A stretch of DNA of 64,000 nt from a virus (taxonomy: Duplodnaviria > Caudoviricetes). Shown here piece after piece: positions 45,415 to 61,835 of the stretch. The DNA lies in IMG/VR virus record IMGVR_UViG_3300042881_004206; one strand, 5' to 3'. The position numbers and the translations under genes were made by a program. The stretch's first letter is position 1. Every line of letters begins with the position of its first letter. Under the pieces are notes generated by a model, which worked only from the letters and a program-made list of their open reading frames with translations, was not told where the DNA came from and ran no database searches.

Positions 45415-45636
45415 ATGAATTATGTAAGAGTAAAGGGAACTAATTTGATTAGGGATACTAATTCCATGGGTTTAACAAATAATGATATGAATGGATTGGA
45501 AGACTACAAAACAAGACGCAGATTATTAAAGAATCAAAAAGAAGAAATAAATAAAGTAAAATCAGAAATAAAAGATGTCAAAGATGAATTATCGGAGATA
45601 AAATCTTTGATGTTAAGACTACTTGACAAGGGTTAA
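45415..45636 (+). CDS. small coiled-coil protein
   Basis: LIRD..S, heptad [23 protein letters not shown]. Confidence 0.7.
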
Positions 45637-45637
45637 A

Positions 45638-47827
45638 ATGGCTAATACAGTACCAATTCTAAGTTATGCCAACACTTTTAGTGATTGGTTTGTTGCAACC
45701 AACGCATTGTCTGGTGAAAACAATCTTTTAGCCAAAGGCGATTACACCAAAGATACCGGAACATTGTATCTGAGTGAAACAACACAAAACTCATTGCAAT
45801 CCAATGGAAACATTATTGTACAAAAACAATTACTCGTACAAGGTCTAGGTTCTTCAGCAACAATTCAAAATAATTTAACTGTCGGCGGCCAAATTTATTT
45901 TACGAATACCACATTAGGTCTAGTGGCCAGTGGTCAAGCAAACATATCTGGTCCAATTTATGCATTATCACCAAATACAGGTTTAATTGTTGCAAACAAT
46001 ACAACATTACAGGGTAATTTAATTTCCATTGGTCCGGCGACCTTTGCAAATTCGGTTTCTGTTTCAAATTGGTTAAATGTTGCAAGTTGGTTGAGTGTTT
46101 CTTCCAATTCATCTTTCAGAGATTCGGTTTCTATTTTAGGACCGATGACAGTTTCAAATAATGCATCTGTTACCGGAAATGTTTTGGTTTCACAAAATTT
46201 AGGAACCTCATCTCTATCCGTTATTAACAATGCAAGTGTTGATTCATTACAGGCTAATGCTTCGGTTAATACTAGAAGTATAACAGTAACAAATAGTGGT
46301 ACAGTAAATGTATTACATGCCAATACTAGTGTAAACACCGTTATAGTATATGCAAATAGTGGTGCAGTTGTTGCCGGCGTAAATGTGGTTCCTTTTATTA
46401 CCGCATCATTCTCACACGCTAATGCAGCATACGAATCTCAAAATACTACCGGTGTATATGCTAATGCGGCTTATGCACAAGCAAATTCGGCATCTTTGTA
46501 TGCGAATGGTGCTTTCGATAGAGCAAATAGTGTCTCTGCAATAGCGAATTTAGCACTACAAACATCAAACAGTGCATTTGCTACAGCCAATTTAGCAGCA
46601 AATAATGTTAGTTTTGCTTTCAGTGCTGCAAACTCCGCATCTTTGTATGCGAATGGTGCTTTCACACAAGCCAATGCCGCTTTCACATTAGCAAATACTA
46701 TCAACACATATGTTGTAACAGTTGCCAATAATGCATTAGCAAATACAAGTGATATTATTACAGCAGGAAATTTAACAACAAGTGGCAATTTAGTTGTAAA
46801 TGGTTCCGCATCGATGTTCATTGGTGCAACCAGAGTAATTGCAGCAAACGGTTCATGGGTTGGACCAAACAGTGGTTTGATTGGAGCAACAGGCGCTGCA
46901 GGTGCTAATGGTGCTCCTGGTGCAGCAGGTTCACCTGGACCAACTGGTGCCACAGGCGCTGCGGGACCTGCAGGATCTAATGGTGCACCGGGACCCACAG
47001 GATTAACAGGGCCTGCAGGACCTGCGGGACCTACTGGACCAACAGGACCAACGGGGCCAACTGGCCCTACAGGTGCTACAGGCACAGGATCTCCAGGCCC
47101 GGCGGGACCCACAGGTTCTGCGGGACCAACAGGAGCAACTGGACCAACAGGACCAACAGGTCCATCAGGCACCTCTGGTTCTCCCGGCCCAACAGGTCCT
47201 GCTGGACCAACAGGTCCCACGGGCGCTACGGGCACTGGATCTCCAGGTCCATCTGGTCCATCTGGACCACCAGGCCCACCAGGACCCACCGGTCCTACTG
47301 GACCAACAGGCCCATCAGGTACAGGACCAACTGGTCCATCTGGCCCATCCGGACCACCAGGTCCACCAGGACCCACCGGCCCAACAGGACCAAATGGTGT
47401 AATAGGATTACCTGGACCAACTGGCCCAGCAGGTCCACCAGGACCTACCGGCCCTACTGGACCAACAGGCCCAACAGGAAATCCTTTTGGTGGTGGAACA
47501 TTTACAGGTAGCATAGGTGTACAGGGCAACATTTACGCCACAGGTGAAATTACTGCGTTTTCGGATGAAAGACTGAAAACTAATATTACAGAGATACAAA
47601 ATGCATTGGAAAAAGTGAATAATCTTAGAGGTATATTCTTCAATAGAAAAGATGATGAAATCCGAAGCGTTGGTGTAATTGCTCAAGAGGTAGAAAAAAT
47701 ACTACCAGAAGCAGTAAGACAAACTGAAAATGGATATATGGCTGTGAGTTATGGTAACATGGTTGGTTTATTGATTGAAGCGATTAAAGAGTTGAAAAAA
47801 GAAATAGAAGAATTGAAACAAAAATAA
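45638..47827 (+). CDS. tail fibre with collagen-like stalk and C-terminal S74 intramolecular chaperone
   Basis: ANTFSDW N-terminus, about 200 aa of Gly-[12 protein letters not shown]...GVIAQEVE...[15 protein letters not shown]. Confidence 0.88.
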
Positions 47828-47880: not shown

Positions 47881-48222
47881 ATGCCAGCAGGATACGCAGA
47901 TCAATTTATAGAACAGGGCACAACTTTTACCAGCGACCTTACACTTGATGATGTTAATGGTAACAGTTATAATCTAACTGGCTTTTCGGTCAGTAGTCAA
48001 GCACGCCGTTCCTATTATTCTACGAATCCAACAATAGTTTTTAATGCATCAATTGTTGATGCTAGTAATGGTGTAATTCGTTTAACAGCTAATTCGGCTG
48101 TAACATCAAATGTTAAACCTGGAAAATTAGTGTATGATGTTCGACTAATAGAAAATTCTTCAAACAATGTAACAAGAATACTAGAAGGACAAATTTTTGT
48201 TTCTCCTGCTGTAACCAGATAA
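47881..48222 (+). CDS. small Ig-like fibre-associated structural protein
   Basis: IEQGTTF, YNLTG, ARRSYYS, YDV, RILEG.I.VSP.VT. Confidence 0.7.
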   Translation: MPAGYADQFIEQGTTFTSDLTLDDVNGNSYNLTGFSVSSQARRSYYSTNPTIVFNASIVDASNGVIRLTANSAVTSNVKPGKLVYDVRLIENSSNNVTRILEGQIFVSPAVTR

Positions 48223-48236
48223 AGTAAAGGCAAGAG

Positions 48237-49442
48237 ATGCCAACGAAGATTACGGTCACAAATCCACAACCAATAACAGTCAAAGTAGACTCGGGTAAAG
48301 ACCAAGTAGTCCATAGCACGACCACCTTTTTAGGTTCTGCAAACAATTTCTTTTCCAATACTGGTGGAACAGTAACTGGTAATATTATAATTGAAGGTAC
48401 AACATTTACCGGAAATATATTACCTAGATCCGATCAAGTTTATAATATTGGATCGCCGACACTTAGATATAAAACACTATTCATTGCGGCGAATACGATA
48501 GACCTTGGTGGTGGAACAATCTCCGCCAATGGTAATACGATGGTATTGAGTTCCCCATCAGGCGGAACAATGTTTTTTAATGCGCCAGCAAATACAACAA
48601 TCGATGCCGGCGCAGGTGAAAGAGCAGAAGACACAGCAAACACAGCCTACTCATTATCTGTTGGAGCATATTATTACTCTGGTGAAGCAATTGCAACATC
48701 AAATACAGCTATCAACACAGCGAATACTGCGCTCGATTCTTCAAACGCAGCGTTCAGTACTGCAAATACAGCTTATGATCTAGGCCTTGGTGGTTATTAT
48801 TACTCGGCTGCGGCACTGACTACTGCAAATGGCGCCATCGAAACGGCAAATGCTGCAGCAAATACAGCAAATACATCATATGATATTGCTGCAGGCTCTT
48901 ATTATTACGCAGCAACCGCTTACATAACGGCAAATGAAGCATTTGTAACCGCACAGACGGCCACAATCGATGCACAAACTGCTATCATAACTGCGCAAAC
49001 AGCAGAAATAACCGCACAAACCGCTATTGACGCTGCAAATTTGGCGTTGGCGATTGCAAACAGTATTGTTTTAACTAATTATGTACAGAGAATTGGTGAT
49101 ACAATATTGGGACCTTTGGTTTTCTTAGGTGAACCAACGGCAAACCTACAAATTGGTAATATTCAGAGTGCAAATGGCATAGATTTATATGCACAAAACA
49201 CAGGATATGCACAAGTAAACTATTCCAATATACACTTTGTCACCACAAATTCTTTTGGAACTCTGATACAGACGCAAAATAGTGCAATAAATTTGGATTC
49301 GAATAACAAAACAATCGATTTAATTTCCGAAAACGAAATAAATGTTAACGTTAATAATTTTAGTGCAATAACGGTCTATCCGAATAACGACATTTATCTC
49401 AGAGGATCTATTTCGGCCACAGTTGACGGTGGCAATTTTTAA
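48237..49442 (+). CDS. fibre protein with Ala/Thr/Asn heptad stalk
   Basis: YNIGSPTLRYK module, ANTA/AQTA repeats, C-terminal DGGNF. Confidence 0.7.
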   Translation: MPTKITVTNPQPITVKVDSGKDQVVHSTTTFLGSANNFFSNTGGTVTGNIIIEGTTFTGNILPRSDQVYNIGSPTLRYKTLFIAANTIDLGGGTISANGNTMVLSSPSGGTMFFNAPANTTIDAGAGERAEDTANTAYSLSVGAYYYSGEAIATSNTAINTANTALDSSNAAFSTANTAYDLGLGGYYYSAAALTTANGAIETANAAANTANTSYDIAAGSYYYAATAYITANEAFVTAQTATIDAQTAIITAQTAEITAQTAIDAANLALAIANSIVLTNYVQRIGDTILGPLVFLGEPTANLQIGNIQSANGIDLYAQNTGYAQVNYSNIHFVTTNSFGTLIQTQNSAINLDSNNKTIDLISENEINVNVNNFSAITVYPNNDIYLRGSISATVDGGNF

Positions 49443-49481: not shown

Positions 49482-51122
49482 ATGGCAAATACCAACATCA
49501 GAATTAAACGCTCACTATCAACAGGTGTACCGTCATCGTTGTTAGCGGGCGAATTGGCATACTCCTATCAGTCCAATACGATTTTCATCGGTTCTCCGGA
49601 TGGTAATGGTGTTGTTAATGTTGGTGGTCAATACTATACCTCACAAATTGATAATGCAACAGATACAAATATTGGAAATACTCTTGTTCGTAGAGATGCT
49701 TCCGGTAATGTTTCTTTCAATTATATTACCGCAAATATTATTGGTAGCATAATTGGTAACTCCAATTCTGCAACACAACTCTTAGTTCCTAGAGACTTCT
49801 CAATAAGTGGCGGAGACATTTCCGCCAATGCTGTATCTTTTGATGGTACAAGCAATGTAGTTCTTAATGCTTCTTTAGATCCTGTATCAGGTTTAACAGC
49901 CGGTGTTTATGGTGGAGCAACCGCAATACCAGTTGTAACTGTGGCCGCCAACGGTCGTGTAATGGCGATTGCAAACACCGTAGTCGCGACCTCTTTCACG
50001 ATTTCAGGCAATACAGGAACAGATACATTTAATGGTGGTGAAACACTATCATTCTTGGGTAATGGATCAGGTGTCGTAACAGCAGTATCGAACGGTCAAG
50101 TTGTATTTGGTACTGATACTACAGTTGTTCGTTCCAATACAGTAATCTCGAAACAGACAATTGATGGTGATGTTGAGATCAGTGGTAACCTGATTGTTCT
50201 AGGTACTGAAACAATCATTAATGTCGATACATTGAATATTGCTGACCCATTACTATTCTTAGCATCAAATAATTCAGCTGATATTGTTGATATTGGTTTT
50301 GTTGGTCACTATAATGACGGATCAGATCGACATGCTGGTGTTATTCGCCACGCCGGAACAAAAGAATTCTATGTCTTTGATCACTACAATGTGGAGCCCA
50401 GCGGTAATGTCATTGACCTTGCAAACAATGATTTCAGAACCGCAAATGTTAATGCTGGTTACTTCAAGGGTAATTTAATTGCAGGTTCAATTACTGTTAG
50501 TAACCTGTCAGTCAGCACACCACTAGGTGTTCCAAGTGGCGGTACAGGTCAATCGTCATTTACAGCAGGACAAATTTTACTTGGTGATGGCACCAATTCA
50601 GTCAAACAACTTGCGAATGTAAGTGCAGTCAATTCATCGTTATCTGCAAATGCAACTGTTTCGAATCTGACAACAGATGTTTATGGTCGTGTAACATCAT
50701 TTACCACACAAGCAATTTCTGGACTGACTACCAGCCAAGGTGGTACAGGCCAAAGTTCATTCACTAGTGGTGCTATTCTTATCGGTAACGGAAGTGGCGC
50801 TCTAGAAACATTATCAAATACAACATTTGTTGCAACTGGAACAGGCGCATCGAACAGCACAATTACATCAGTAACAGTTGATGCATACGGAAGATTTACG
50901 GCAGCCACATTTACTGCAATTTCTGGATTGACTACTGCACAAGGTGGTACAGGACAAAATACATTCACAACAAATGGCATGTTGTATGGAAATGCTTCAG
51001 GACCATTACAAGTTACCGCAGCAGCAGGCACTTCAGATCAAACATTCTCAAATCAAATTATGACAGTCACAAATGCTGGTGTTCCCGTATGGTCAACCAC
51101 ACTTGATGGTGGTCAATTCTAA
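49482..51122 (+). CDS. fibre protein with Mtd-N-terminal-like domain
   Basis: IRIKRS...GELAYSY, GGTGQSSFT and VTVDAYGR repeats, C-terminal DGGQF. Confidence 0.7.
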   Translation: MANTNIRIKRSLSTGVPSSLLAGELAYSYQSNTIFIGSPDGNGVVNVGGQYYTSQIDNATDTNIGNTLVRRDASGNVSFNYITANIIGSIIGNSNSATQLLVPRDFSISGGDISANAVSFDGTSNVVLNASLDPVSGLTAGVYGGATAIPVVTVAANGRVMAIANTVVATSFTISGNTGTDTFNGGETLSFLGNGSGVVTAVSNGQVVFGTDTTVVRSNTVISKQTIDGDVEISGNLIVLGTETIINVDTLNIADPLLFLASNNSADIVDIGFVGHYNDGSDRHAGVIRHAGTKEFYVFDHYNVEPSGNVIDLANNDFRTANVNAGYFKGNLIAGSITVSNLSVSTPLGVPSGGTGQSSFTAGQILLGDGTNSVKQLANVSAVNSSLSANATVSNLTTDVYGRVTSFTTQAISGLTTSQGGTGQSSFTSGAILIGNGSGALETLSNTTFVATGTGASNSTITSVTVDAYGRFTAATFTAISGLTTAQGGTGQNTFTTNGMLYGNASGPLQVTAAAGTSDQTFSNQIMTVTNAGVPVWSTTLDGGQF

Positions 51123-51165
51123 TGTAACTATATAATCTATATCATCTTTATAATAGGAGTTTGAA

Positions 51166-51798
51166 ATGGCAGCAAATGAAAAATATCTTAATTATTATAT
51201 CGAGACATTAACTACCACATTAACAGATTGTGTGGTACGAAATGTCTCGATGCAGGCAAATGCTAGAATTTCTGAAGAAGTTATTGGTGATTTACAACAA
51301 AAAGTTGAAGAATTGCAAGGTATTCTAAGTTCTTCTAAAGAATCAAGTGAAACGACAATAACACAATATTCCAATGAAATTAAAAAATTATCAACTGAAA
51401 TTAATGAACTTAAAATAATTAGAAATCAATATGAAAATGTAAAAAGTGAGGCGGCACATGTTGAGACTTTTAGAAATGAATTGGTAAAAGAACGTGAAGC
51501 ACACCAATCAACACGAAATGAATTACAAGTAAAAGTAAATAACATTACAAATGACTTCAACAACAGAATTAATAAGTTGAATAGTGAACAAAATGATAAA
51601 TTAAATTCTTTGAATAAAGAACATAACGAAAAATTGAATAAAACAATTTCCAAACACAAAGAGGAAATTAAAGCTCTTAATGATCGAATTGCTTATCTTG
51701 AAATGTCTCCTGCCAAGAGAAAAAAGTTTGACTTGATGAATGCTAAACCTACAGTTGAAGAAACTGAAGAAGAAAACAAGGACGGCGGAGTTTTTTAA
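51166..51798 (+). CDS. coiled-coil protein
   Basis: Long heptad K/E/N-rich helix; GGAG RBS. Confidence 0.7.
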   Translation: MAANEKYLNYYIETLTTTLTDCVVRNVSMQANARISEEVIGDLQQKVEELQGILSSSKESSETTITQYSNEIKKLSTEINELKIIRNQYENVKSEAAHVETFRNELVKEREAHQSTRNELQVKVNNITNDFNNRINKLNSEQNDKLNSLNKEHNEKLNKTISKHKEEIKALNDRIAYLEMSPAKRKKFDLMNAKPTVEETEEENKDGGVF

Positions 51799-51802
51799 TT
51801 AA

Positions 51803-53068
51803 ATGCCTACAGCAATCACTAATACAGCTATACAACTAAAAAAGTCAGGAAGTTCAGGCAACACACCAGCAAACTTAAATTATGGTGAACTTGCTATCAA
51901 CTATGCTGATGGTAAGCTGTTTTATAAAAATTTATTAAACAACATTGATTTTATTGAAAATCAAGATACTTTCAATACTATCAATGCGAACTCCACATTA
52001 GTAATTTCCACATCACCAACTGATGTACTATCTCTTGCCGCTGGGCCTGGCATATTAATTGATGCGAATGCCAGCAGTAAAACAATAACACTCTCATCTA
52101 CTGGCGGTTCAGCCGGTTCGTATGCAAATGCAGCTTTCTTACAGGCAAATGCAGCATATGGTTTAGCAAATACTTTAGCTTCCGGTTCTGTTGATACTTA
52201 TGCAAGACCACACGCAAATGCGGCTTTCAACAGAGCGAATAACTCAGTACTGAAAACTGGCGATACAATGACGGGTGATTTGCTGATGAACACAGCAAAC
52301 ATCGAAGTCAAGTATATAATTGTTGAAAATACATTATATTCCGGTCTTGCAACTAGAGGTCATACACCACTACCAAATTTAATTGCTCAATTTACTGGCA
52401 ATGTTTCTTCATATGTTCAGGTCAATGCACAAAATATTGACGAACACGGATCAGCAGATTATGTTATCACGGCAGATGTTGGTACTGATGAAACATTTTA
52501 TTTGGACCTTGGACTACACAGTTCACAGTTAACAGAAGGTACGATTTATCCTCTTGATGGTTATCTTTATGTGCAAGGTAACACCAGTCAATTAGGTGGA
52601 AACTTAATTATTGGTACCACATCCGATACACCTGGCATTCAAACAAGAATTGTTGCAGGTGGATATGATGAACAAAATGTAGTCATCACAATTGATCCCG
52701 ACAATACAACTGTTAAAAATAAATTAAAAGTTAATGCTGCGCTGTCGGTTAATACCAGTACACTCACTTCAATATCATATACCTCATCAAATACAAATCA
52801 AGTAATAGTTGATAGATTTTTAACATCAGAATTTAGAAGTGCTAAATATGATGTACAGTTAACAAACGGATCAAATTATCATGTGTTTGAAGTCAGAGTT
52901 TTACAAGATGGAAGTTCTGCATTCATAACACAGTATGGTGAAATATTTACGAGCACAAGACTGGGTAATGTGGATGCTTCTTGTTCCGGTGGTTATTTAA
53001 ATCTTTTATTTCAACCTGATGCGTCACCAACAACAATCAAATTATTGAGGACTGCTATCGCAACATAA
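51803..53068 (+). CDS. fibre protein with Mtd-N-terminal-like domain
   Basis: IQLKKS...GELAINYADGKLFYK; C-terminal FRSAKY...QYGEI module. Confidence 0.7.
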   Translation: MPTAITNTAIQLKKSGSSGNTPANLNYGELAINYADGKLFYKNLLNNIDFIENQDTFNTINANSTLVISTSPTDVLSLAAGPGILIDANASSKTITLSSTGGSAGSYANAAFLQANAAYGLANTLASGSVDTYARPHANAAFNRANNSVLKTGDTMTGDLLMNTANIEVKYIIVENTLYSGLATRGHTPLPNLIAQFTGNVSSYVQVNAQNIDEHGSADYVITADVGTDETFYLDLGLHSSQLTEGTIYPLDGYLYVQGNTSQLGGNLIIGTTSDTPGIQTRIVAGGYDEQNVVITIDPDNTTVKNKLKVNAALSVNTSTLTSISYTSSNTNQVIVDRFLTSEFRSAKYDVQLTNGSNYHVFEVRVLQDGSSAFITQYGEIFTSTRLGNVDASCSGGYLNLLFQPDASPTTIKLLRTAIAT

Positions 53069-53084
53069 GTGAAAGTGAAATATT

Positions 53085-53657
53085 ATGAAAGGTGAATGGT
53101 GTTATTTTAAAAGTTATTTTTCTCCGGAAACTTGCAATCAAATTTTAAATTTAGGTCTACAACTACCTAAACAAAACGCAACCCTTGGTGTCGAGGGCAA
53201 AAGTGTAGACACCCAATACAGAAAAAGCCAAACAAGATTTATATTAAAAGAACATCGACAATTTAATTTTTTGTTTGATGAGATGTGGAAAATGGCTATC
53301 AAAGCAAATGAAGATTGGTTTGGTTTTCATGTCACAAAAATAGATTATATACAATTGGCAGAATATGATTCTGCTTATCAAGGTGAATATAAAAAACACC
53401 ATGATGTTTTCTGGATCAATAACGATCCAGTTTATCACCGAAAATTAACAGCCGTTGTTCAATTAACGGATCCTTCTGATTATGATGGTGGAGATTTTGA
53501 AGTTTACGATGCAAATTTCTATCCAAATAAAGAAGAAATCCGCGAACAAGGTACTGTAATTTTTATTCCTTCTTTTATGCCACATGCCGCATTACCTGTA
53601 ACCAAAGGTGTGCGGCATAGTTTGGCTTGTTGGTTTGATGGTCCAAAGTGGAGATGA
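53085..53657 (+). CDS. 2OG-Fe(II) oxygenase (prolyl-hydroxylase/PKHD-like)
   Basis: HHD (HxD), RKLTAVVQL, YDGGDF, PH, RHSLACW. Confidence 0.9.
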   Translation: MKGEWCYFKSYFSPETCNQILNLGLQLPKQNATLGVEGKSVDTQYRKSQTRFILKEHRQFNFLFDEMWKMAIKANEDWFGFHVTKIDYIQLAEYDSAYQGEYKKHHDVFWINNDPVYHRKLTAVVQLTDPSDYDGGDFEVYDANFYPNKEEIREQGTVIFIPSFMPHAALPVTKGVRHSLACWFDGPKWR

Positions 53658-53658
53658 T

Positions 53659-54789
53659 ATGAGATTCCATATATTAGGTTTGCCCCATACAGTTACTTCA
53701 AAAGAATATAATGCATGTGCATACACTCAAAAGGTGTGGAAATTTGGTAAAATGATGACCAATTTAGGCCATGAAGTCATACACTATGGCCATGAAGAAT
53801 CAGATTTACAATGCACAGAACATGTAACTGTTACAACAAATGAGGACCTTAAAAAAGCTTATGGTTCTTATGACTGGCGCAAAAACTTTTTTAAATTTGA
53901 TACAGGCGACCATGCTTATCAAACATTTTATGCAAATGCAATTAGAGAAGTGGGTAAAAGAAAAAAGAAAAACGATTTTATTTTACCATTTTGGGGTTCA
54001 GGTGTCAGACCAGTTTGTGATGCACATCCAGATTTAATTACTGTTGAACCTGGAATTGGATATGCTGGTGGGCATTGGGCAAGGTTTAAAATATTTGAGT
54101 CTTATGCAATCTTTCATGCATACTATGGACTGAATTCTGTTGGTACATGTATGCAAGATTGGTATGATGTTGTAATACCAAACTATTTTGATCCTGATGA
54201 CTTTGTTTTCAACGATAAAAAAGAAGATTATTTTCTATTTTTAGGTCGCGTGTATGAGGGTAAAGGTGTAAACATTGCAGTACAAGCAACGGAAGCTATT
54301 GGTGCTAAACTAATTATTGCTGGGCAAAATTCACTTAAACAAATGGGTTATCCTGCAATACCATCTCATGTAACAGAAATTGGATATGCAGATGTGAACA
54401 AAAGAAAAGAACTAATGTCAAAAGCCAAAGGCGCATTTGTAGCTTCACTATATAATGAACCATTTGGTGGTGTTCAGATGGAGATGTTGTTCTCAGGAAC
54501 TCCAACAATTACCACCGATTGGGGAAGTTTTACAGAAAATAATATTCATGGTGTAACTGGTTATCGTTGCAGAACATTTGAACAATTCACTTGGGCTGCA
54601 AAAAATATTGATAAAATTGATCCTAAAAACTGTAGGAAGTGGGCTGAAAACTTCACATTGGAAAAAGTTGGAAGAATGTATGAAGAATATTTTCAGTCAG
54701 TATTGAATGTGTTTACAGGCAATGGTTGGTATGAAATAAATCCTATGAGAAATGATTTAAATTGGCTGAGTAAGAATGTTTCACTTTGA
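53659..54789 (+). CDS. GT4 (GT-B) glycosyltransferase
   Basis: FLFLGRV..GKG, EPFGGVQME (EX7E), GTPTITTDWG; start MRFHIL at 53659. Confidence 0.9.
   Translation: MRFHILGLPHTVTSKEYNACAYTQKVWKFGKMMTNLGHEVIHYGHEESDLQCTEHVTVTTNEDLKKAYGSYDWRKNFFKFDTGDHAYQTFYANAIREVGKRKKKNDFILPFWGSGVRPVCDAHPDLITVEPGIGYAGGHWARFKIFESYAIFHAYYGLNSVGTCMQDWYDVVIPNYFDPDDFVFNDKKEDYFLFLGRVYEGKGVNIAVQATEAIGAKLIIAGQNSLKQMGYPAIPSHVTEIGYADVNKRKELMSKAKGAFVASLYNEPFGGVQMEMLFSGTPTITTDWGSFTENNIHGVTGYRCRTFEQFTWAAKNIDKIDPKNCRKWAENFTLEKVGRMYEEYFQSVLNVFTGNGWYEINPMRNDLNWLSKNVSL

Positions 54790-54833: not shown

Positions 54834-61835
<7,002 letters not shown>

What the first reader, a model, noticed from the sequence alone, without database searches (positions are those of the whole stretch)
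53085..54789. 2OG-Fe(II) hydroxylase and GT4 glycosyltransferase embedded among collagen fibre genes: candidate virion-fibre modification system
Seen: the two enzyme genes are adjacent (1-nt gap) inside the late fibre cluster, directly before the 2332-aa collagen fibre and about 5 kb after another collagen fibre. The Gly-X-Y repeats are dominated by GPT/GAT/GST (Thr at Y), with GPP in the 45.6-kb fibre. Known: eukaryotic and mimivirus collagens are hydroxylated and glycosylated, and Bacillus BclA GXT collagen is O-glycosylated. Inference: the phage hydroxylates and/or glycosylates its own fibres for triple-helix stability, protease shielding or receptor mimicry.
Basis: inference. Interest (0 to 1): 0.72.

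Follow-up and report, generated by a model that had tools for sequence, protein, structure and literature searches.

The report
Phage collagen-fibre hydroxylase and glycosyltransferase pair
An uncultured lake-water T4-like phage encodes a proline-hydroxylase-like enzyme and a sugar transferase wedged between its collagen-like tail-fibre genes, and across about 200 related loci each enzyme's presence tracks the residue it would modify (proline or threonine), so they probably decorate the fibres, though no chemistry has been shown.

Summary
ORF 53085-53657 is a P4H-like 2OG/Fe(II) oxygenase (OX) with an intact catalytic motif. ORF 53659-54789 is a GT4-like glycosyltransferase (GT) with an EX7E motif. 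They lie 1 nt apart, just before a 2332-aa collagen-like fibre (319 Gly-X-Y triplets; Y=Thr 60%, X=Pro 33%).

They are the only PF13640 and PF00534 genes found in the 157-kb genome.

In about 200 related loci:
- OX sits beside collagen fibres rich in X-position Pro. Collagen was present in 7/7 OX+ against 7/24 OX- control loci.
- In GT loci, X=Pro is 0.37-0.61 with OX and 0-0.33 without.
- GT goes with Thr-rich collagen (Y=Thr median 0.74 against 0.40), including one bacterial chromosomal locus.
- Each enzyme often occurs without the other, so they probably act independently: Pro hydroxylation, and Thr O-glycosylation.

Caveats: these correlations rest on few independent evolutionary events, and nothing biochemical is known. 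A classic collagen P4H (Y-position Pro) does not fit, and the repeats contain no Lys. I found no enabling genes for DNA modification. Host-surface glycosylation remains a rival for GT.

This scan has noted similar fibre-tailoring cassettes in other phage genomes.

The parts
53085..53657 (+). OX: 190-aa P4H-like 2OG/Fe(II) oxygenase, a minimal double-stranded beta-helix core
   Evidence: PF13640 E 7e-14. H105-x-D107, H167 and R177-x-S179 are invariant in 65 homologs. AF2 pLDDT 87.6. The best structural matches are protein prolyl hydroxylases. It is the only PF13640 match in the genome.
53659..54789 (+). GT: 376-aa Glycos_transf_1 (GT4-like) glycosyltransferase. Its RBS lies inside the OX 3' end. 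It lacks the C-terminal methyltransferase domain found in its closest relatives.
   Evidence: PF00534 1e-14, phrog_3408 2e-189. E267-x7-E275 invariant. The profile matches TeGSS alpha-1,2-glucosyltransferase 7fg9 at 2e-20. It is the only PF00534 match in the genome. The 555-aa GT-methyltransferase fusions are 94% identical.
54837..61835 (+). 2332-aa collagen-like fibre, the presumed main substrate. Collagen runs alternate with repeated globular modules.
   Evidence: 319 triplets; X=Pro 106, Y=Thr 190, no Lys in the repeats. Many PF01391 matches.
45623..47827 (+). 734-aa tail fibre with a collagen region and a C-terminal Peptidase_S74 intramolecular chaperone; presumed second substrate
   Evidence: PF01391 4e-25, PF13884 4e-17, many tail-fibre PHROGs. 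66 triplets; X=Pro 42, Y=Thr 30, Y=Pro 11.
47881..49442 (+). Context: a 113-aa tail-fibre-assembly-like protein and a 401-aa tail fibre protein
   Evidence: phrog_3304 2e-18; phrog_25042 1e-10
49482..53068 (+). Context: three structural-module ORFs (546, 210 and 421 aa) of unknown role. The same gene order precedes OX in the nearest relative, L006.
   Evidence: phrog_697 structural protein 2e-11 for the 546-aa ORF. Gene order 547-208-428-OX-GT in L006. No Pfam family above its cut-off.

Best explanation
The two genes encode late, fibre-module accessory enzymes that post-translationally modify the phage's own collagen-like fibres inside the infected cell before assembly. OX is a minimal prolyl-hydroxylase-like 2OG/Fe(II) oxygenase. 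It most likely hydroxylates prolines in Gly-Pro-Thr/Ala triplets, that is, X-position Pro, as non-animal P4Hs can. GT is a retaining GT4-type enzyme that uses a host nucleotide sugar. It most likely O-glycosylates the Y-position threonines; in close relatives the sugar would then be methylated by the fused methyltransferase. The two act independently rather than as a hydroxylate-then-glycosylate relay. The likely benefit is folding or stability of a Gly-Pro-Thr triple helix, and a sugar coat on the host-binding fibres.

Shown: gene identities, intact catalytic motifs, fold class, synteny, and the composition correlations. Inferred: the substrates, the modified residues, the sugar, and the benefit.
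For: 1. Enzyme class. OX hits PF13640 and has an invariant HxD...H...RxS motif. The structural matches rank protein prolyl/lysyl hydroxylases first: PPHD Z 17.7, PBCV-1 collagen P4H 16.4, Cr-P4H 15.6, mimivirus L230 14.5. AlkB (12.9) and TET (11.1) rank lower. GT has Glycos_transf_1 and an EX7E motif.

2. They are the only PF13640 and PF00534 genes found in the 157-kb genome, and both lie inside the fibre module.

3. OX orthologs (80 loci) lie directly after a collagen-bearing fibre or in the order OX-GT-collagen. Of loci with at least 8 kb upstream, 29/33 hold collagen ORFs, with median X=Pro 0.49. The marine S-CAM9-like lineage shows the same pattern.

4. In neck-gene (gp15)-anchored control loci, 7/7 OX+ loci have collagen against 7/24 OX- loci (Fisher p=0.0013). 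The Gly-X-Y ORFs in loci with neither enzyme are G-Y-S, G-I-S or G-T-Q repeats with X=Pro at most 0.03.

5. Among GT loci, X=Pro is 0.37-0.61 with OX (n=11) and 0-0.33 without (n=23). The separation is complete.

6. Collagen next to GT is Thr-rich: median Y=Thr 0.62. Among OX loci, Y=Thr is 0.74 with GT and 0.40 without (p=2e-4).

7. GT lies beside Gly-X-Thr collagen in distant settings: S-CAM7/ACG-2014f, S-CBWM1 (31% identity), and a Hyphomicrobium MAG chromosome with the order autotransporter, collagen (Y=Thr 0.93), GT.

8. Known chemistry. (Gly-Pro-Thr)10 is a random coil unless the Thr is galactosylated, and TGP triplets are anomalously frequent in viruses (PMC11923368).
Against: - No chemical evidence of any modification exists.
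- The composition correlations are phylogenetically shallow. OX state changes only 3 times on the GT tree and GT state about 6 times on a poorly supported OX tree. The independent-pair tests cannot reach significance.
- Counter-examples exist. Some GT-negative loci have high Y=Thr (L092, L094, L099, L136). L110 and L113 have both enzymes but Y=Thr of only 0.36. Four of 33 OX loci show no collagen within 10 kb, and 13 GT loci with full upstream flank show none.
- Both genes lie at the edge of a hypervariable fibre region where unrelated accessory genes collect (PMC7029224).
- Most cellular GT homologs (15 of 18 MAG loci) are not beside collagen.
- OX's best structural match is an EF-Tu prolyl hydroxylase, so a host protein target is possible.
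- Y-position Pro, the classic collagen P4H site, is nearly absent from the 2332-aa fibre.
- The GT structural model was too poor to examine an acceptor site (pLDDT 63).
Confidence: 0.55

Rival explanations
1. GT, with or without OX, modifies the host cell surface (LPS, O-antigen, S-layer or exopolysaccharide) during infection. This could block superinfection or stop progeny from re-adsorbing to debris. Its place next to fibre genes would reflect only the hypervariable host-recognition island.
For: This is the usual reading of glycosyltransferases in the fibre-region islands of cyano- and pelagimyophages (PMC7029224; PMC12801897). GT4/Glycos_transf_1 enzymes commonly build surface glycans, and the weak NCBIfam matches are to such enzymes. 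Relatives often carry extra GTs next to it: a 298-aa GT1 and a GT2+HtrL_YibB protein. Most MAG homologs have no collagen neighbour.
Against: GT lies directly beside Gly-X-Thr collagen ORFs in several distant lineages, including a non-phage bacterial locus. Y=Thr is higher where GT is present. The genome encodes no sugar-nucleotide or lipid-carrier genes next to it. This reading does not explain OX or its link with X-position Pro.
Confidence: 0.17
2. Positional coincidence. Both are unrelated accessory genes parked at the fibre-neck junction. OX would hydroxylate a host protein (for example EF-Tu or a ribosomal protein, as PPHD and OGFOD1 do) or a small molecule, and GT would have some other acceptor.
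For: The top structural match is the P. putida EF-Tu prolyl hydroxylase, and PiuC/YbiX proteins of unknown substrate also score well. The junction is a known hotspot for accessory genes. Evolutionary contrasts are few. A 2OG oxygenase turned up in a cyanophage virion proteome and its authors judged it non-structural (PMC12801897).
Against: These are the only such genes found in the genome, and they lie exactly here. OX presence goes with collagen presence in neck-anchored controls (p=0.0013). OX presence also goes with X-position Pro content across three sampled sets.
Confidence: 0.15
3. Coupled relay. OX makes hydroxyproline and GT glycosylates that hydroxyproline, as in protist Skp1 (PhyA then Gnt1) or plant extensins, rather than glycosylating threonine.
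For: The two genes are 1 nt apart with the GT RBS inside OX. Dictyostelium PhyA is among the best structural matches. Hydroxylation followed by glycosylation is the known logic for collagen Lys and for Skp1 (established knowledge).
Against: The enzymes are separable. GT occurs without OX in 23 of 34 informative loci, beside collagen with almost no Pro but much Thr. OX occurs without GT in 22 of 43 loci. GT is of the GT-B/GT4 type, not the GT-A types (GT60, GT95) known for Hyp glycosylation.
Confidence: 0.08
4. DNA hypermodification. The oxygenase makes a hydroxylated base and GT glycosylates it, as in phage TET-plus-GT systems or ThyA-homolog-plus-GT systems.
For: An oxygenase-plus-GT pairing is known for phage DNA modification. 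A candidate DNA glycosyltransferase of Rhizobium phage RL38J1 has the same best PDB templates, 7fg9 and 8x3q (PMC13326640).
Against: OX has a P4H-like fold, with NgTET1 far lower (Z 11.1 against 17.7). The genome shows no ThyA/dCMP-hydroxymethylase homolog, no C5 DNA methyltransferase and no Tet_JBP match. Caveats: the genome is about 92% complete and the Tet_JBP control did not ring. The genes lie in the structural module, not the nucleotide-metabolism module.
Confidence: 0.04

Closest known systems
PBCV-1 viral collagen prolyl 4-hydroxylase (vCPH; PDB 5C5T/5C5U) and other non-animal P4Hs (Chlamydomonas Cr-P4H, Bacillus anthracis P4H)
   Same: A small, single-domain, virus- or microbe-encoded P4H-like 2OG oxygenase. 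The fold match is strong (Z 16.4 for vCPH, 15.6 for Cr-P4H, 13.2 for BaP4H). It is encoded by a virus that also encodes Pro-rich repeat or collagen-like proteins. These enzymes do not need Pro in the animal Y position (established knowledge).
   Different: Sequence identity is only about 17-20%. This one is a bacteriophage enzyme placed inside the tail-fibre module. The presumed sites are Gly-Pro-Thr/Ala, with Pro at X. No activity has been measured.
Bacillus anthracis BclA: Gly-Pro-Thr collagen-like exosporium protein O-glycosylated on Thr
   Same: The collagen-like region is dominated by Gly-X-Thr/Gly-Pro-Thr triplets. Thr is the proposed sugar attachment site. Related glycans carry O-methyl sugars, which recalls the GT-methyltransferase fusions here (PMC11923368; established knowledge).
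   Different: BclA is a bacterial spore protein, not a phage fibre. No homology between this GT and the BclA glycosylation enzymes was shown. No hydroxylase is known to take part in BclA glycosylation.
Mimivirus L230 and animal LH3/PLOD with GLT25D1 (collagen Lys hydroxylation, then Hyl glycosylation)
   Same: A virus-encoded 2OG oxygenase and a glycosyltransferase that act on the virus's own collagen-like fibres. The L230 hydroxylase domain matches the OX model (Z 14.5).
   Different: The collagen repeats here contain no Lys. The enzymes are separate genes and occur independently. GT is GT4-like, not of the LH3/GT25 type. The chemistry is therefore presumably Pro-OH and Thr-O-sugar rather than Hyl-O-sugar.
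Mycobacteriophage virion glycosylation (Freeman et al. 2023, PMC10527164, cited)
   Same: Phage-encoded glycosyltransferases next to structural genes that glycosylate virion proteins in the infected cell.
   Different: There the targets are the C-termini of the capsid and tail-tube subunits, not collagen-like fibres. The hosts are actinobacteria. No hydroxylase takes part.
Riftia cuticle collagen and synthetic (Gly-Pro-Thr)10 peptides (Mann 1996; Bann 2000, as cited in PMC11923368)
   Same: Gly-Pro-Thr triplets need Thr galactosylation to form a stable triple helix. This gives a mechanistic reason for a dedicated GT.
   Different: That is an animal and synthetic system. Nothing shows that phage fibres, which have their own trimerisation domains, need the sugar.

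Membership tests
Prolyl-4-hydroxylase-like 2OG/Fe(II) oxygenases (Pfam PF13640, P4Hc) | Profile match above the curated threshold | tested here: met
   PF13640 at 53 bits against a cut-off of 27, E 7e-14; phrog_61 at 7e-26
Prolyl-4-hydroxylase-like 2OG/Fe(II) oxygenases (Pfam PF13640, P4Hc) | His-x-Asp...His iron triad plus a basic residue that binds the 2OG C5 carboxylate | tested here: met
   H105, D107, H167, R177 and S179 are invariant in 65 homologs
Prolyl-4-hydroxylase-like 2OG/Fe(II) oxygenases (Pfam PF13640, P4Hc) | Double-stranded beta-helix fold closest to protein prolyl hydroxylases | tested here: met
   Model pLDDT 87.6. Foldseek top hits are 4iw3, 6t8m, 4j25 and PHD2 with TM 0.70-0.75. 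VIA-align gives Z 17.7-15.6 for prolyl hydroxylases, 12.9 for AlkB and 11.1 for TET.
Prolyl-4-hydroxylase-like 2OG/Fe(II) oxygenases (Pfam PF13640, P4Hc) | Hydroxylation of peptidyl proline | not testable with these tools
   Needs an enzyme assay or mass spectrometry
Animal-type collagen P4H (C-P4H) | Acts on Pro in the Y position (X-Pro-Gly); has a peptide-substrate-binding domain and a PDI subunit | tested here: not met
   The protein is a 190-aa catalytic core only. Y-position Pro is nearly absent from the 2332-aa fibre and is about 0 in relatives' collagen ORFs.
CAZy GT4-type retaining GT-B glycosyltransferases | Glycos_transf_1 domain with an E-x7-E motif | tested here: met
   PF00534 at 54.9 bits against a cut-off of 26.4. 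E267 and E275 are invariant. The profile matches GT4-type structures 7fg9, 5zer and 2jjm.
CAZy GT4-type retaining GT-B glycosyltransferases | Two-Rossmann-domain GT-B fold | tested here: inconclusive
   The AF2 model has pLDDT of only 63.3, so it was not used for a fold search
Collagen Lys hydroxylation/glycosylation systems (LH3/PLOD, mimivirus L230) | Lys in the Y position of the collagen substrate; lysyl hydroxylase joined to a GT | tested here: not met
   The repeats here contain no Lys, and the median Lys fraction is 0 in 92 neighbouring collagen ORFs. The genes are separate, and no OX-GT fusion appears among the 120 best GT homologs.
Hydroxyproline O-glycosylation relays (Skp1 PhyA-Gnt1; plant HRGPs) | The glycosyltransferase depends on the hydroxylase (obligate co-occurrence) and is a GT-A family enzyme | tested here: not met
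   GT occurs without OX in 23/34 loci, and OX without GT in 22/43. The GT is of the Glycos_transf_1 type.
Phage DNA hypermodification (TET/JBP or ThyA homolog plus GT) | A base hydroxylase or hydroxymethylase (Tet_JBP or ThyA homolog), with a C5 DNA methyltransferase where needed, in the same genome | tested here: not met
   No PF00303, PF00145 or PF12851 match in the 157-kb, about 92% complete genome. The PF12851 control did not ring, so that part is weak.
Phage virion glycosylation (mycobacteriophage type) | Phage GT genes next to structural genes; glycans found on virion proteins | tested here: inconclusive
   Adjacency is met. Glycans on virions are not testable here.

The most novel reading that the evidence does not exclude
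Aquatic T4-like phages carry a modular, substrate-matched collagen-tailoring kit. A minimal prolyl hydroxylase is kept only where fibre collagen has Pro in the X position (Gly-Pro-Thr or Gly-Pro-Gln). A separate GT4 enzyme, sometimes fused to a methyltransferase, is kept where the Y position is Thr. If so, this would be the first bacteriophage collagen modification system. It would also be a natural case of X-position prolyl hydroxylation plus Thr O-glycosylation, which would explain how Gly-Pro-Thr collagens fold; the free peptide is a random coil.
Probability: 0.35. Interest if true: 0.8.

Novelty: new variant of a known kind. Interest (0 to 1): 0.62.

Why it matters
Collagen-like fibres are among the commonest host-recognition structures of aquatic phages, and Gly-X-Thr triplets are over-represented in viral and bacterial collagens, yet nobody knows whether or how they are modified. 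Papers on marine viruses call viral P4H genes 'cryptic' (PMC9301287) and read fibre-region glycosyltransferases as LPS or DNA modifiers (PMC7029224, PMC12801897).

If these two enzymes hydroxylate and glycosylate the fibres, that would give a function to a widespread class of phage 'auxiliary' genes. It would add a layer to phage host-range determination and to evasion of proteases and grazers. It would also supply small, soluble enzymes for making stabilised recombinant bacterial collagens.

The hypothesis is directly testable with peptides and mass spectrometry.

Tried and rejected
- GT structure. The AF2 model was too uncertain (pLDDT 63.3), so no fold search was run on it. I used a sequence profile against the PDB instead.
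- Promoters and terminators. Sigma-70-like and terminator-like sites were no more frequent than in shuffled sequence (62 against 56 expected). The T4 late motif TATAAATA occurs once in the window, below chance. No statement about late transcription can be made from these.
- Phylogenetic independence. Independent-pair tests on the GT tree and the OX tree gave too few contrasts (2-3 and 1-6) to be significant. The Mann-Whitney and Fisher p-values are therefore not corrected for relatedness.
- Other oxygenases. I looked for other 2OG oxygenase paralogs in the GT loci using seeds from annotated cyanophage genes. Almost none turned up. One 'seed' (the 187-aa ORF upstream of GT in ACG-2014f) has no Pfam hit and is not demonstrably an oxygenase.
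- Lys hydroxylation and glycosylation (LH3/L230 model): rejected, because the repeats contain no Lys.
- DNA-modification model: no enabling genes found.
- Methyltransferase domain of the fused relatives: not found elsewhere in the genome, but that search had no positive control.
- Literature. A search for PiuC function found nothing.
- Complex prediction was not used. No stable protein-protein binding is claimed, and enzyme-substrate pairs are poor targets for it.
- psbA is absent, so I do not call the phage a cyanophage; the host is unknown.
Full report
**What is there**

The window is the minus strand of the first 64 kb of a 156.6-kb virus record, about 92% complete. It belongs to an uncultured T4-like myovirus with no close cultured relative. 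No psbA was found, so the host is unknown. Most related contigs come from IMG/VR metagenomes, and earlier notes of this scan call it a lake-water phage.

From 38.7 kb to the window end, every gene is on the + strand and tightly packed. In order they are:
- a 1672-aa DUF4815 protein;
- a 734-aa fibre with collagen repeats and a Peptidase_S74 chaperone;
- a tail-fibre-assembly-like protein and a tail fibre protein;
- three structural ORFs;
- the two enzyme genes;
- a 2332-aa collagen-like fibre.

Two further collagen-bearing frames lie at the far end of the record, just beyond the window if the genome is circularly permuted.

ORF 53085-53657 (OX, 190 aa) hits PF13640 above threshold. ORF 53659-54789 (GT, 376 aa) starts 1 nt after the OX stop. 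Its GGAG ribosome-binding site lies inside the OX 3' end. It hits Glycos_transf_1 and, very strongly, phrog_3408.

The 2332-aa protein has 319 Gly-X-Y triplets: X=Pro 106, Y=Thr 190, almost no Y-position Pro and no Lys. The 734-aa fibre has 66 triplets: X=Pro 42, Y=Thr 30, Y=Pro 11, including 5 GPP.

**The enzymes**

OX
- It keeps an invariant H105-x-D107...H167...R177-x-S179 motif across 65 homologs.
- It folds with confidence (pLDDT 87.6).
- Both Foldseek and an independent all-against-all aligner place it with protein prolyl hydroxylases. Scores are P. putida PPHD Z 17.7, PBCV-1 collagen P4H 16.4, Trichoplax and Dictyostelium PHDs about 16, and Chlamydomonas P4H 15.6.
- Lower down come mimivirus lysyl hydroxylase at 14.5 and B. 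anthracis P4H at 13.2. The nucleic-acid oxygenases rank below these: AlkB 12.9 and NgTET1 11.1.
- It is a bare catalytic core without the substrate-binding domain of animal collagen P4H.

GT
- It has the E-x7-E motif (E267, E275 invariant).
- Its C-terminal half matches retaining GT4-type enzymes such as the cyanobacterial alpha-1,2-glucosyltransferase TeGSS (7fg9, 2e-20) and pteridine glucosyltransferase (PMC9909042).
- Its model was too poor to use.
- Its closest metagenomic relatives (94% identity) carry an extra C-terminal class-I SAM methyltransferase domain that the window copy lacks.

OX and GT are the only PF13640 and PF00534 matches in the genome. No PF13759 oxygenase was found. This differs from marine cyanophages, which carry many scattered 2OG oxygenases (for example).

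**Comparative genomics**

I fetched four sets of loci:
- 80 loci around GT homologs;
- 80 around OX homologs;
- 80 around the neck/sheath-stabiliser gene gp15, as position-matched controls;
- 10 around the marine S-CAM9-type OX ortholog.

I also used annotated cyanophage records and 20 MAG contigs.

Position. Both genes are accessories at the end of the fibre module, just before gp13/gp14/gp15.

OX
- It lies directly after a collagen-bearing fibre (offset -1 in 21 loci) or in the order OX-GT-collagen.
- Of loci with at least 8 kb upstream, 29/33 have collagen ORFs, with median X=Pro 0.49.
- In gp15-anchored controls, 7/7 OX+ loci have collagen against 7/24 OX- loci (Fisher p=0.0013).
- The Gly-X-Y ORFs in loci with neither enzyme are G-Y-S, G-I-S or G-T-Q repeats with X=Pro at most 0.03. 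An OX+/GT- locus has G-P-Q collagen.
- Among GT loci, collagen X=Pro is 0.37-0.61 when OX is present (n=11) and 0-0.33 when it is absent (n=23). The separation is complete.
- In the marine S-CAM9-like lineage (45-48% identity), OX again follows a fibre with X=Pro 0.38-0.54.

GT
- In 25 of 81 loci it is directly adjacent to a collagen ORF. Of loci with full flanks, 22/26 contain one.
- Y=Thr has a median of 0.62, while Y=Pro and Lys are about 0.
- Among OX loci, Y=Thr is 0.74 with GT and 0.40 without (p=2e-4).
- GT also adjoins Gly-X-Thr collagen in S-CAM7/ACG-2014f and in S-CBWM1 (31% identity).
- In a 99-kb Hyphomicrobium MAG contig the order is autotransporter, 333-aa collagen-like protein (Y=Thr 0.93, X=Pro 0), GT. 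This is a non-phage setting. A Planctomycetota MAG shows a similar adjacency.

**Limits of the comparisons**

These associations are not corrected for shared ancestry.
- On a GT tree the OX state changes only 3 times. On a weakly supported OX tree the GT state changes about 6 times. Independent-pair tests cannot reach significance.
- Exceptions exist. Some GT-negative loci have high Y=Thr. Two loci have both enzymes but Y=Thr of 0.36. Four OX loci and 13 GT loci have no collagen within reach.
- Most cellular GT homologs have no collagen neighbour.
- Absence calls on contig fragments are imperfect.

**Mechanism**

The best reading is that both enzymes tailor the fibres, each on its own residue. 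OX would hydroxylate X-position Pro in Gly-Pro-Thr, Gly-Pro-Ala or Gly-Pro-Gln. GT would O-glycosylate Y-position Thr using a host nucleotide sugar, with O-methylation in relatives that carry the fused methyltransferase.

Because the two genes are separable, a hydroxylate-then-glycosylate relay of the Skp1 or LH3 kind is unlikely. The lack of Lys rules out the animal and mimivirus route.

A functional reason exists. (Gly-Pro-Thr)10 is a random coil unless the Thr is galactosylated, and TGP triplets are anomalously frequent in viral collagens. Whether such Thr residues are glycosylated in nature is stated to be unknown (PMC11923368).

**Rivals**

- Host-surface glycan modification is the usual reading of such GTs (PMC7029224, PMC12801897). 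It remains possible for GT, but it explains neither the collagen adjacency in unrelated lineages nor OX.
- A host-protein target for OX (EF-Tu-like) cannot be excluded.
- DNA hypermodification is unlikely. The fold is not TET-like. No ThyA homolog, C5 methyltransferase or Tet_JBP gene was found (PMC13326640).

**Novelty**

Virus-encoded collagen hydroxylases and glycosyltransferases are known in giant viruses (PBCV-1 vCPH, mimivirus L230). Virion glycosylation is known in mycobacteriophages (Freeman 2023, cited). For aquatic phages, viral P4H use is called 'cryptic' (PMC9301287).

I found no paper that describes a fibre-linked P4H-like and GT4 pair, or its composition-matched distribution, in tailed phages. 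Earlier AI notes of this scan describe similar fibre-tailoring cassettes in at least nine other genomes. These are leads, not evidence.

I class this as a new variant of a known kind.

Noticed in passing
P0124 (555 aa), L006:10001-11686, L086:10001-11671; compare window 53659-54789: The closest GT relatives (81-94% identity) are fusions of the GT with a C-terminal class-I SAM methyltransferase (Methyltransf_23/11/12/25). The window copy ends 47 nt before the fibre gene and lacks that domain. No copy was found elsewhere in the genome, though that search had no positive control.
   Followed up: partly
L086:9447-10004; L001:11440-12003; the 186-188-aa ORFs in L007, L112, L118 and L119: A conserved 185-188-aa ORF with no Pfam hit sits between OX and GT, or next to GT, in 18 related loci and in ACG-2014f. 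It is absent from the window. It may be a third member of the cassette.
   Followed up: partly
L275-L284 and L004/L005 (S-CAM9, S-8S56 lineage): In this marine lineage the fibre collagen has Y=Lys 0.32-0.44 as well as X=Pro about 0.5. Two 2OG oxygenase genes lie in tandem after it (a 203-aa paralog, then the OX ortholog). This hints at separate prolyl and lysyl hydroxylases.
   Followed up: no
L268:4330-9902 (Hyphomicrobium MAG contig, GC 0.62): A chromosomal locus has an autotransporter (DUF7507, SpaA_4, beta-domain), then a 333-aa collagen-like protein (Y=Thr 0.93), then a 636-aa GT homolog. It looks like a bacterial surface collagen with its own glycosyltransferase.
   Followed up: partly
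window 54837-61835: The 2332-aa fibre is built from about four copies of a roughly 515-aa super-module. Each has a collagen run, two about 95-aa globular domains with a weak Phage_depo_C beta-sandwich match, another collagen run, and a '[17 protein letters not shown]' domain. Tandem Repeats Finder sees only a 63-nt collagen sub-repeat.
   Followed up: partly
L235:484-4772; L253:1-2964: Long Gly-Tyr-Ser / Gly-Ile-Ser repeat proteins (about 200 triplets) in fibre modules of related phages pass a Gly-X-Y filter but have neither Pro nor Thr. They are probably a different kind of repeat fibre, not collagen.
   Followed up: no
G000:C1:104087-104461 (outside the window) and G000:C1:153253-156152: The genome holds one GT2-family gene (247-aa frame) far from the fibre module. 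It also has two more collagen-bearing frames (591 and 797 aa) at the far end of the record, which would continue the fibre cluster if the genome is circularly permuted.
   Followed up: no
L051:252-1853; L054:6597-7493; L038:4934-5776: In relatives, other recurrent neighbours of the GT are a GT2+HtrL_YibB protein (533 aa), a second GT1 (298 aa) and a papain-like cysteine peptidase (280 aa). Some lineages may therefore build a longer glycan or process the fibre.
   Followed up: partly
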